This document shows, in pieces, positions 1,684-3,597 of a DNA stretch of 64,000 nt (the first letter of the stretch is position 1; the number at the start of each line of letters is the position of its first letter). The DNA comes from the human T2T-CHM13v2.0 reference genome, Homo sapiens. The notes under the pieces were generated by a model. It saw only the letters and a program-made list of their open reading frames with translations, was not told where the DNA came from and ran no database searches. Where the stretch lies: the NCBI RefSeq assembly GCF_009914755.1, contig NC_060931.1; one strand, 5' to 3'. Made by a program: the position numbers and the translations under genes.

Positions 1684-2044
1684 ATTTAAATGAAAGGTCT
1701 AGGTTAATTCCATAGTAGTATGGGACACAGAATTACTTTCAGCTGGGAAGAAGGTGGAAATCAAGGCTGGCTTCCTGGGGGTGGTGCTGTCCAAGGTGTT
1801 TGAACCAGAGCAACTCCATCTTGAATAGGGGCTGGTAGAAATAAGGCTGAGACCTACTGGGCTGCATTCCTAGGAGGTTAGGCATTCTAGTCACAGAATG
1901 AGATAGGAGGTCAGCACAAAATACAGGTCACAAAGACCTTACTGATGAAACAGGATGCAATAAAAAAAGCTACCCAAAGTCCACCAAAACCAAGATGGTG
2001 ATGAGAGTGACATCTGGTCATCCTCACTGCTCATTAAATATGAA

Positions 2045-3597
2045 TCATAATACATTATACATTAGCATTATATATATAATATATAATTGTGTATAATTAT
2101 ATTATGTACAATATATTATATATACAATTATATATAATTATATCGTATATTAATATAACTGTATTATATATTAATTATATATACAATTATATATAATTAT
2201 ATTATATATTAATATAATTGTATTATATATTAATTATATATACAATTATATATAATTGCATATATATAATATATATTACATATATTATGTAATTTATATT
2301 ATATATATATTTTATATTATATTATTATTACATATATATAATTATATATGTATAACATATATATAATATGTAATTATATATACAATTATATATAATTATA
2401 TTATATATTAATATATAATATAATTATATATGCAATTATATATAATTATATTATATTAATATATAATATCATTATATATACAATTATATATAATTATATT
2501 ATATTATATATATAATATTATATATAATATTATATTATAATTATATAATATAATTATATATACAATTATATATGATATATTTTATTATATATATAATATT
2601 ATATATAATATTATATTATGATTATATAATATAATTATATATAATTATATAATATTACCGTATAATATAATTATATATACAATTATATATAATTATATTA
2701 TATTACTATATAATATAATTATATATACAATTATATATAATTATATAGTAATATATAATATAATTATATATACAATTATATATAATTATATTATATAGTG
2801 ATATATAATATAATTATATATACAATTATATATAATTATATTATATAGTATTATATAATATAATTATATATACAATTATATATAATTACATATTATATAA
2901 TACTATATAATGTAATTATATATAATTATATTATATACAATATATAAATATATATAATATAATTATATTATATATAATATGAAATATATATTATATGTAA
3001 CATAATTACATTATACATAACATATTATATATTATATATTATATCATTACATATATTATATATAACATATTATATCATTACATATATTATATATAATATA
3101 TTATATCATTACATATATTATATATAATATATTATATCATTACATATATCATATATAATATACTATATATGTAATGCTAATATATAATGTATTATGATTC
3201 ACATTTAATGAGCAGTGAGGATGACCAGACGTCACTCTCATCACCATCTTGGTTTTGGTGGGCTTTGGGTAGCTTTTTTAAATAATATATATTATATTAT
3301 ATATTATATAACATGTATATTATATATATAATATATAATATAATATATAATATATTACATATAATATATGTAATATATTATTTATATTATATATAATATA
3401 TAAAATATAATATATAATATATTATATTATAAAATATATAGTATATTATTATATTATATATCATATATAATATTATTTATATTATATATCATATATAATA
3501 TTATTTATATTATATATCATATATAATATTATTTATATTATATATATTATTTATATTATATATATTGTATATAATATTATTTATATTATATATATAT
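2045..3597. repeat. Large (TA)-rich low-complexity/minisatellite tract, containing an inverted MER41 segment at 3172-3280
   Basis: Almost pure A/T with recurring units such as ATATAATATAATTATATATACAATTATATATAATTAT. Confidence 0.95.

What the first reader, a model, noticed from the sequence alone, without database searches (positions are those of the whole stretch)
1961..3280. Inverted duplication of MER41B around a 1.1-kb AT-rich spacer, with deletion of the LTR core and an Alu tail
3172-3279 is the reverse complement of 1963-2070 (4 mismatches in 108 bp by my count). The LTR keeps its GTGC TSD, but its middle and the 3' end/polyA of the nested Alu (3598-3860) are gone. They are replaced by AT filler, the inverted copy and more AT filler. 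This reads as one complex deletion-insertion. Inverted arms around self-complementary AT DNA resemble a PATRR-like cruciform-prone structure (inference; the spacer is not a perfect palindrome).
Basis: partly seen in the sequence, partly recalled or inferred. Interest (0 to 1): 0.7.

Follow-up and report, generated by a model that had tools for sequence, protein, structure and literature searches.

The report
Inverted LTR piece across AT-rich array
An old retroviral end-piece (a MER41-type solo LTR) lost its middle to an AT-rich tandem array, and a 125-base inverted copy of its own edge was later inserted inside that array; this is an ordinary scar of DNA break repair, not a true cruciform-forming palindrome.

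Summary
Bases 1963-2070 and 3172-3279 are reverse complements with 4 mismatches in 108, and the match extends to 125 nt with 7 mismatches.

The host element is a real solo LTR at 1788-3985, with TG..CA ends and a 4-bp GTGC target duplication. It belongs to the MER41 family and is B-like.
- Its closest genomic relatives, about 634-643 bp long, are 85-89% identical.
- Two copies called MER41B in print are 78-82% identical.

About 240 nt of the LTR core is missing, together with about 40 nt and the tail of a nested Alu. In relatives that core carries 1-2 GAS-like motifs.

The right arm is a local copy of the left arm. The arms share 8 private columns and a 7-bp slip that none of 13 relatives has. 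I date the copy to roughly 7-22 My ago; print dates the family to 45-60 My.

The PATRR reading fails.
- The 1067-nt spacer is a one-orientation AT minisatellite.
- Its self-complementarity (78%) is no higher than its match to unrelated AT arrays.
- Its tight hairpins reach only 23 nt.

My best model is a fold-back or template-switch inverted insertion at a break inside the AT array. Two of 20 evaluable other AT arrays show arms bracketing an array in the same way.

The parts
1784..1787 (.). Left copy of the 4-bp target-site duplication (GTGC)
   Evidence: Read directly. The same four bases lie at 3986-3989, just outside the TG...CA ends.
1788..3985 (+). Whole solo LTR of the MER41 family (B-like), interrupted by AT arrays, an inverted copy of its own segment and a truncated Alu
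   Evidence: TG at 1788 and CA at 3985. The 5' and 3' parts match full-length genomic relatives.
1788..2069 (+). 5' part of the LTR. Plain homology to relatives runs to 2057, followed by a 7-bp slip duplication and a few more LTR-derived bases.
   Evidence: 85-89% identity to the best 39 non-self matches in the genome. 78-82% identity to two copies named MER41B in print. Junction read.
1963..2087 (+). Left (original) arm of the inverted repeat: about 107 nt of LTR plus 18 nt of AT array
   Evidence: It is contiguous with the rest of the LTR.
2088..3154 (+). AT-rich minisatellite (the spacer), 94% A+T, with units of about 50 and 31 nt head to tail in one orientation
   Evidence: TRF periods 50 (21.5 copies, 76% matches) and 31. 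Composition C 40, G 21. The marker ACAATT occurs 11 times on the + strand and its complement twice.
3155..3279 (-). Right arm: an inverted copy of 1963-2087, lying as an island between two AT arrays
   Evidence: 7 mismatches in 125. It shares 8 private columns and the 7-bp slip with the left arm. It is only 87% identical to the neighbouring LTR at 5044-5113.
3281..3597 (.). Second AT-rich array (97% A+T)
   Evidence: A 147, T 161, C 5, G 4.
3598..3860 (-). Alu nested in the LTR, lacking about 40 nt of its 3' body and its A-tail
   Evidence: BLAST against the Alu at 370-645 of the window: 370-596 pairs with 3855-3607, and the other Alu runs on to 645 plus an A-run.
3861..3985 (+). 3' part of the LTR
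   Evidence: Matches the 3' ends of relatives at 74-85% identity in 9 of 11 relatives.
3986..3989 (.). Right copy of the target-site duplication (GTGC)
   Evidence: Read directly.

Best explanation
A MER41-family, B-like solo LTR inserted here in an anthropoid ancestor; print dates the family to 45-60 My. An Alu later landed in its 3' third.

An AT-rich minisatellite then grew out of the LTR's own AT-rich stretch, the stretch that B-type copies have and A-type copies lack. Together with one or more deletions, it replaced about 240 nt of LTR core, including the GAS-like sites, and the Alu tail.

Later, roughly 7-22 My ago, a break or stalled fork arose inside the array. The exposed 3' end folded back on the self-complementary AT DNA, or switched template. 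It primed near the left edge of the array and copied 125 nt outward into the LTR. The new strand was then released and joined to the other side of the break. That left an inverted island (3155-3279) between two AT arrays.

Shown: the anatomy, the local origin of the copy, and its late date relative to the LTR. Inferred: the fold-back or template-switch mechanism and the order of the earlier steps.

The structure has no evident function. The LTR has lost the part that gives the family its interferon-responsive sites. The arm pair could anneal only in long single-stranded DNA, not extrude as a cruciform.
For: Local origin of the copy:
- Across the 95 LTR columns, the arms differ at 3 and share 8 columns whose base is carried by <=25% of 13 relatives.
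- Both arms carry a 7-bp slip and the same LTR/AT junction, seen in 0 of 13 relatives.

Island geometry:
- The copy lies between two AT arrays, while the original arm is continuous with the LTR.
- The same geometry, mirrored, occurs at L064. There a 274-nt alignment at 96.0% identity links an island to the far edge of a 1.26-kb AT array.
- A smaller case occurs at L039, with 41-nt arms and 1 mismatch.
- Counting these, 2 of 20 evaluable arrays have arms bracketing an array. One more (L059) has a 165-nt, 97.6% inverted pair beside an array.
- Controls gave no such pair in 187 kb apart from one simple repeat.

Folding: as single-stranded DNA the two arms pair in both the minimum-energy and the centroid structure.

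Print (passages only):
- Fold-back templated inverted insertions of 2-150 bp form at breaks. One end primes on itself and the product is captured by the other end (PMC11724301).
- Template switches in great-ape genomes make inverted repeats and are enriched near AT-rich and poly(dA:dT) DNA (PMC7954356).
Against: - No outgroup or pre-event sequence was available, so neither the order of events nor the mechanism is observed.
- The fold-back needs either a loop of about 1 kb or later growth of the array inside a short loop. I cannot tell which.
- Junction microhomology is uninformative in AT DNA.
- The printed yeast events are mostly under 14 bp, with about 150 bp as the upper end.
- The date rests on 3-7 differences, and gene conversion between the arms would make it too young.
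- The 28 comparison arrays were picked from the best-scoring matches and by size, so they are not a random sample.
- The L039 arms are partly low-complexity.
Confidence: 0.6

Rival explanations
1. A single replication-based rearrangement deleted the LTR core and Alu tail and laid down AT filler, the inverted copy and more AT filler together.
For: The missing stretch runs across the LTR/Alu boundary, so at least one deletion came after the Alu. All the new material sits exactly in that gap. Multi-step template switching is known (PMC11724301 and PMC7954356, passages).
Against: The arms include 18-30 nt of AT array and the slip junction, so that junction was there to be copied. The arrays are tandem units of unequal similarity, 76% for the 50-nt period and 94-97% for neighbouring 31-nt units, as expected of growth over time. 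Kb-scale AT arrays of the same kind exist at dozens of loci without any inverted copy.
Confidence: 0.15
2. A decayed true palindrome. A fold-back with a short loop once made a long, nearly perfect AT-rich palindrome with non-AT ends (PATRR-like). Array turnover has since erased its central symmetry.
For: Non-AT ends around an AT-rich centre is the PATRR layout. The left half of the spacer aligns slightly better to the reverse complement of the right half (score 276) than to the right half directly (256), than either half to its own complement (254, 253), or than to block shuffles (238 +/- 7, maximum 251).
Against: Marker motifs keep one orientation across both halves. C exceeds G in both halves of the spacer and in three of its four quarters, with no mirror flip. 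The self-reverse match of 78% equals the match to unrelated arrays. The longest tight hairpin arms are 23 nt.
Confidence: 0.15
3. Assembly artefact: a chimeric fold-back read put an inverted copy into the assembly.
For: AT-rich arrays are hard to sequence and assemble. This is general knowledge; no call tests it here.
Against: The arms differ at 7 of 125 positions, including one at a CpG site. An artefactual fold-back would copy the strand exactly. Similar islands about 4% diverged exist at other loci. Reads were not available, so this remains untested.
Confidence: 0.03
4. A second, independent MER41 insertion in the opposite orientation, later truncated, or a conversion tract from the neighbouring inverted LTR at 4735-5288.
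For: A second MER41 LTR does lie 750 nt downstream, in the orientation of the right arm.
Against: The right arm is 94-96% identical to the left arm but only 87% to the neighbour. It is 81-87% identical to 11 other copies. The neighbour lacks the AT-rich stretch that the right arm carries. The arm has no target duplication of its own, and it shares the left arm's private columns and slip.
Confidence: 0.02

Closest known systems
MER41 solo LTRs (ERV1-type, gammaretrovirus-like), subfamily B
   Same: - TG..CA ends and a 4-bp target duplication.
- 85-89% identity to full-length copies.
- 78-82% identity to the two copies near IFI6 that PMC6292174 calls MER41B.
- It keeps the start of the AT-rich stretch that the A-like neighbour lacks. 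Print describes a 43-bp A/B difference (PMC9963469).
   Different: About 240 nt of core is gone. In 11 of 11 measurable relatives that stretch holds 1-2 GAS-like motifs, and none remains here. The LTR also carries a nested truncated Alu, two AT arrays and an inverted copy of itself.
Palindromic AT-rich repeats (PATRR11, PATRR22, PATRR17, PATRR8)
   Same: An AT-rich interior of more than 90% A+T between less AT-rich ends. High-identity inverted arms.
   Different: PATRRs are near-perfect palindromes of about 190-600 bp with central symmetry (PMC1851657 and PMC7999016, passages). Here 125-nt arms are separated by 1067 nt of one-orientation tandem units, and tight hairpins reach only 23 nt.
Fold-back or template-switch inverted insertions at breaks and stalled forks
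   Same: An inverted copy of adjacent sequence, about 125 nt long, inserted close to its template in AT-rich DNA. This is the size range and sequence context given in PMC11724301 and PMC7954356.
   Different: The distance between template and copy is about 1 kb today. The printed yeast case used a 41-nt loop. The pre-event state is unknown.
AT-rich minisatellites of rare fragile sites (FRA16B, FRA10B)
   Same: Tandem AT-rich units of a few tens of bases, able to fold (PMC2875025 passages).
   Different: The array is only about 1.4 kb in total. The 33-nt FRA16B unit printed in PMC2875025 has no match in 1961-3600 at up to 3 mismatches. No cytogenetic evidence is available.

Membership tests
MER41 LTR (ERV1-type) | LTR termini TG...CA with a 4-bp target-site duplication | tested here: met
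   TG at 1788, CA at 3985, and GTGC on both sides.
MER41 LTR (ERV1-type) | Sequence homology to copies named MER41 in print | tested here: met
   78-82% identity over 265-280 nt to L026 and L027 near IFI6, which PMC6292174 calls MER41B (passages). The genome search gave 3334 first-look candidates, and the 39 scored non-self matches were 85-89% identical.
MER41B subfamily | Presence of the roughly 43-bp stretch that MER41A lacks (PMC9963469, passages) | tested here: inconclusive
   The LTR keeps the first part of an AT-rich stretch that is present in 13 of 13 relatives and absent from the A-like neighbour. The rest lies in the deleted core. No curated consensus library was on hand to separate B from C, D, E or G.
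MER41B subfamily | STAT1-type (GAS-like) site in the LTR core | tested here: not met
   No TTCNNNGAA remains in 1788-2057 or 3861-3985. The stretch missing here holds 1-2 in 11 of 11 measurable relatives. The site is absent by deletion, which says nothing against descent from the subfamily.
PATRR | Near-perfect palindrome of several hundred bp | tested here: not met
   Only the outer 125 nt are complementary. The spacer's self-reverse identity of 78% is no higher than its match to unrelated arrays.
PATRR | Central symmetry with no or minimal spacer | tested here: not met
   The spacer is 1067 nt with units in one orientation. The best short-loop arms are 23 nt.
PATRR | More than 90% A+T | tested here: met
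   The spacer is 94% A+T.
PATRR | Size polymorphism and translocation breakpoints at the centre | not testable with these tools
   No population or patient breakpoint data were on hand.
Fold-back / template-switch inverted insertion | The inserted sequence is the reverse complement of nearby sequence on the same chromosome | tested here: met
Fold-back / template-switch inverted insertion | A pre-event state without the insertion in an ancestor or outgroup | not testable with these tools
AT-rich minisatellite of the FRA16B/FRA10B class | Tandem AT-rich units of about 30-60 nt | tested here: met
   TRF periods of 31, 48, 50 and 59.
AT-rich minisatellite of the FRA16B/FRA10B class | Similarity to the printed 33-nt FRA16B unit | tested here: not met
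   No match inside the finding at up to 3 mismatches. The single window match is at 34847-34879.

The most novel reading that the evidence does not exclude
Kb-scale AT-rich arrays in the human genome recurrently capture inverted copies of their own flanks by fold-back synthesis. This locus and the chr13 locus L064 would then be snapshots of how AT-rich palindromes with non-AT ends, the PATRR layout, are born. Array contraction could later turn such a widely spaced pair into a tight, unstable palindrome.
Probability: 0.25. Interest if true: 0.55.

Novelty: new member of a known kind. Interest (0 to 1): 0.3.

Why it matters
On its own this locus is a neutral scar in a gene desert. It shows that this MER41 copy cannot act as an interferon-responsive element, because its core is gone.

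Its wider value lies in the pattern. An inverted island of flank sequence inside an AT array turned up again in a small sample of similar arrays. If a genome-wide count confirms the pattern, it would tie AT-rich arrays to a specific repair outcome and offer a route by which translocation-prone AT-rich palindromes arise.

Tried and rejected
**Naming the LTR through the AIM2 element.** I fetched 80 kb around AIM2. BLAST with the window LTR, the neighbouring LTR and a full-length relative found nothing, even at E=10 or with word size 7. PMC6292174 says that element is MER41E, while PMC9963469 calls it MER41B. I dropped it as a comparator.

**IFI6, lower-coordinate side.** 37.4 kb gave no MER41. 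The two copies lie on the higher-coordinate side.

**First filter for inverted arms at other arrays.** It missed the window's own pair, which was the positive control. I discarded it and replaced it with AT-masking plus BLAST, which recovers the control.

**L047.** I did not count its 79% inverted pair. The identity is low and one arm lies about 540 nt from the array, so it looks like two dispersed repeats.

**Whole-spacer palindromy.** Rejected.

**FRA16B unit.** No match in the finding.

**Literature.** Searches gave no paper describing inverted flank copies at AT arrays as a class. This covers only those two searches, read as listings and abstracts. Papers were read as passages only. Chuong et al. 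2016 was seen only through the review PMC9963469. Supplements are closed, so the event list of PMC7954356 could contain this locus and I could not look.

**Not done.** Alu subfamily and age, primate orthologues, read support, population variation.

Full report
**Observation.**
- The sequence and the repeat finder show one outstanding inverted pair, 1963-2087 and 3155-3279. It is 125 nt long, 94% complementary, with 1067 nt between the arms.
It gives 7 in 125 for the longer arms. Beyond 2087/3155 complementarity falls to AT-noise level.
- After masking AT-rich DNA, this is the only inverted pair of >=95% identity, >=37 nt and <=2.5 kb apart in the 64-kb window.
- 187,401 bases of unrelated loci gave only one place, a simple repeat hit in several registers.

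**The host element is a real solo LTR.**
- It begins TG at 1788 and ends CA at 3985, with GTGC on both sides at 1784-1787 and 3986-3989.
- A search of the same genome with 1789-2070 gave 3334 first-look candidates. Forty were scored, and the 39 non-self matches were 85-89% identical. Matches reached query base 269, which is window base 2057.
- BLAST of 11 saved relatives against 1700-4100 placed their 5' parts on 1744-2058 in 11 of 11. It placed their 3' parts on 3860-3991 in 9 of 11. A segment of each fell on the minus strand at 3184-3280 in 11 of 11, at 81-87% identity.

**Family.**
- Print describes MER41 as an endogenised gammaretrovirus that entered the lineage 45-60 My ago. It has six subfamilies, and MER41B differs from MER41A by a 43-bp stretch (PMC9963469, passages; PMC10069462, passages).
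- PMC6292174 (passages) names MER41B copies near IFI6. I found two MER41 LTRs there, at L026:8436-9058 and L027:3188-4335. The window LTR is 78-82% identical to them, and a full-length relative aligns end to end with one.
- The neighbouring LTR at 4735-5288 (minus strand, 554 nt, TTAT duplication) lacks an AT-rich stretch that all 13 relatives and the window LTR have. That stretch matches the printed A/B difference.
- I therefore call the finding's LTR MER41, B-like, and the neighbour A-like. Separating B from C, D, E or G needs a curated library that I did not have. No inner genes are involved or needed.

**Age.**
- Mean K2P distance of the LTR to 13 relatives is 0.150 (range 0.130-0.194). 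Among the relatives it is 0.152.
- That gives about 0.075 per lineage, which fits the printed 45-60 My at ordinary primate rates. This last step is inference.
- In 22 of 376 covered columns the window base is carried by <=25% of relatives.

**What is missing.**
- In the 10 relatives where both parts could be placed without an insertion, 231-244 nt lie between the equivalents of 2057 and 3861. In an eleventh the figure is 849 nt, and two could not be measured.
- That stretch holds 1-2 GAS-like motifs in 11 of 11 measurable relatives. The window LTR keeps none.
- The Alu at 3598-3860 (minus strand) stops about 40 nt short of its 3' end and has no A-tail, compared with the Alu at 370-645.
- The loss spans the LTR/Alu boundary, so at least part of it happened after the Alu arrived.

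**The right arm is a local, late copy.**
- Over the 95 columns with LTR homology, the arms agree with most relatives at 80. They share a base carried by <=25% of relatives at 8, share a mixed column at 4, and differ at 3.
- Both arms carry a 7-bp slip duplication and the same transition into AT DNA, found in 0 of 13 relatives.
- The right arm is only 87% identical to the same-orientation neighbour LTR.
- Relative dating by three routes:
 - Shared private columns: 1.5/(8+1.5), about 0.16 of the LTR's age, or 7-10 My.
 - 4 mismatches in 108: about 11-15 My.
 - 7 mismatches in 125: about 17-22 My.
- These rest on very few differences and ignore possible conversion between the arms. They are inference.

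**The spacer is not a palindrome.**
- It is 94% A+T, with C 40 and G 21. C exceeds G in both halves of the spacer and in three of its four quarters.
- TRF finds periods of 50 (21.5 copies, 76% matches) and 31.
- The marker ACAATT occurs 11 times on the + strand between 2124 and 2872, and its complement twice. CATTAC occurs 4 times, and its complement only inside the right arm.
- The left half against the reverse complement of the right half scores 276. Direct alignment scores 256, each half against its own complement 254 and 253, and block shuffles 238 +/- 7.
- In the genome search the spacer matches its own minus strand at 78% and dozens of other AT arrays on both strands at 71-85%, and 74-79% for all matches that span most of it.
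- Ungapped short-loop hairpins reach 23-nt arms here. The best arms in 9 other arrays are 32-80 nt.
- As single-stranded DNA the region folds at -333.5 kcal/mol, with the two arms paired in both the minimum-energy and centroid structures. No shuffle control is given at this length.

**Against print.**
- PATRRs are near-perfect palindromes of about 190-600 bp and more than 90% AT. A 9-bp central spacer abolishes extrusion and instability of PATRR22 (PMC1851657 and PMC7999016, passages).
- Lengthening a spacer from 12 to 100 bp lowers inverted-repeat recombination 300-fold in duplex DNA. Repeats up to 30 kb apart still interact in long single-stranded DNA (PMC10164571, passages).
- So the pair is not expected to extrude as a cruciform. 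It could anneal only when the region is single-stranded.

**Mechanism.**
- The copy sits as an island between two AT arrays, while the original arm is continuous with the LTR.
- That is what a templated inverted insertion into a break within the array would leave. A 3' end folds back on self-complementary AT DNA, or switches template, primes near the array's left edge, copies 125 nt outward, and is captured by the other end.
- Such events of 2-150 bp are documented at breaks (PMC11724301). Template switches that create inverted repeats are enriched near AT-rich DNA in great-ape genomes (PMC7954356).
- I cannot tell whether the loop was about 1 kb at the time or whether the array grew later.

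**Recurrence.**
Eight run off their piece, leaving 20 evaluable.
- L064 (chr13) has a 273-nt island between two AT arrays. It is a 96.0% inverted copy of the far edge of a 1.26-kb array.
- L039 (chr2) has 41-nt arms with 1 mismatch around a 757-nt array, though the arms are partly low-complexity.
- L059 (chr10) has a 165-nt, 97.6% inverted pair with a 236-nt spacer abutting an array.
- The sample is small and not random.

**Verdict.** The element is a real MER41, B-like solo LTR, and the family is 45-60 My old in print. The inverted arm is a local duplication of hominoid age. The PATRR-like reading is not supported. This is a new example of a known kind of repair scar, and the recurrence at other AT arrays is a lead worth a genome-wide count.

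Noticed in passing
window 4735-5288 (minus strand); TTAT at 4731-4734 and 5289-5292: A second, independent MER41 solo LTR of 554 nt in the opposite orientation, 750 nt downstream. It lacks the AT-rich stretch of the B-like copies and so is A-like. It is 77-90% identical to the finding's LTR.
   Followed up: partly
L064 (G000:C13:108443600-108446580) with L066; island at 1253-1525 against 2741-3014 in joined coordinates: The same architecture as the finding, mirrored. A 273-nt island between two AT arrays is a 96.0% inverted copy of the far edge of a 1.26-kb AT array. The arms belong to a dispersed repeat, 75-80% identical to window 27258-27561.
   Followed up: partly
L039 (G000:C2:89271950-89274949) 1084-1124 / 1894-1934; L059 (G000:C10:80509990-80512250) 20-183 / 420-584: Two further high-identity inverted duplications next to AT arrays. 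L039 has 41-nt arms with 1 mismatch bracketing a 757-nt array. L059 has 165-nt arms at 97.6% identity with a 236-nt spacer abutting an array.
   Followed up: partly
window 3853-4628: RefSeq lists a functional element here, 'OCT4-NANOG-H3K27ac hESC enhancer'. It overlaps the 3' part of the LTR and the flank beyond it.
   Followed up: no
L013-L020 (G000:C1:158190000-158269999): No MER41 match to B-like or A-like queries anywhere in 80 kb around AIM2. Print disagrees on that element's subfamily: MER41B in PMC9963469 and MER41E in PMC6292174.
   Followed up: partly
window 4499-4590: An A-run followed by a purine-rich GGAA-type microsatellite, between the two LTRs.
   Followed up: no
window 3708-3739: A 7-nt tandem repeat of 4.6 copies inside the nested Alu.
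   Followed up: no
window 34847-34879: Another AT-rich tract. It is the only window match, at 3 mismatches, to the 33-nt FRA16B unit printed in PMC2875025.
   Followed up: no
window 1943-2157 and 3198-3270: The assembly's soft-mask intervals listed in the annotation file leave most of both arms unmasked, although the flanking LTR and AT arrays are masked.
   Followed up: no
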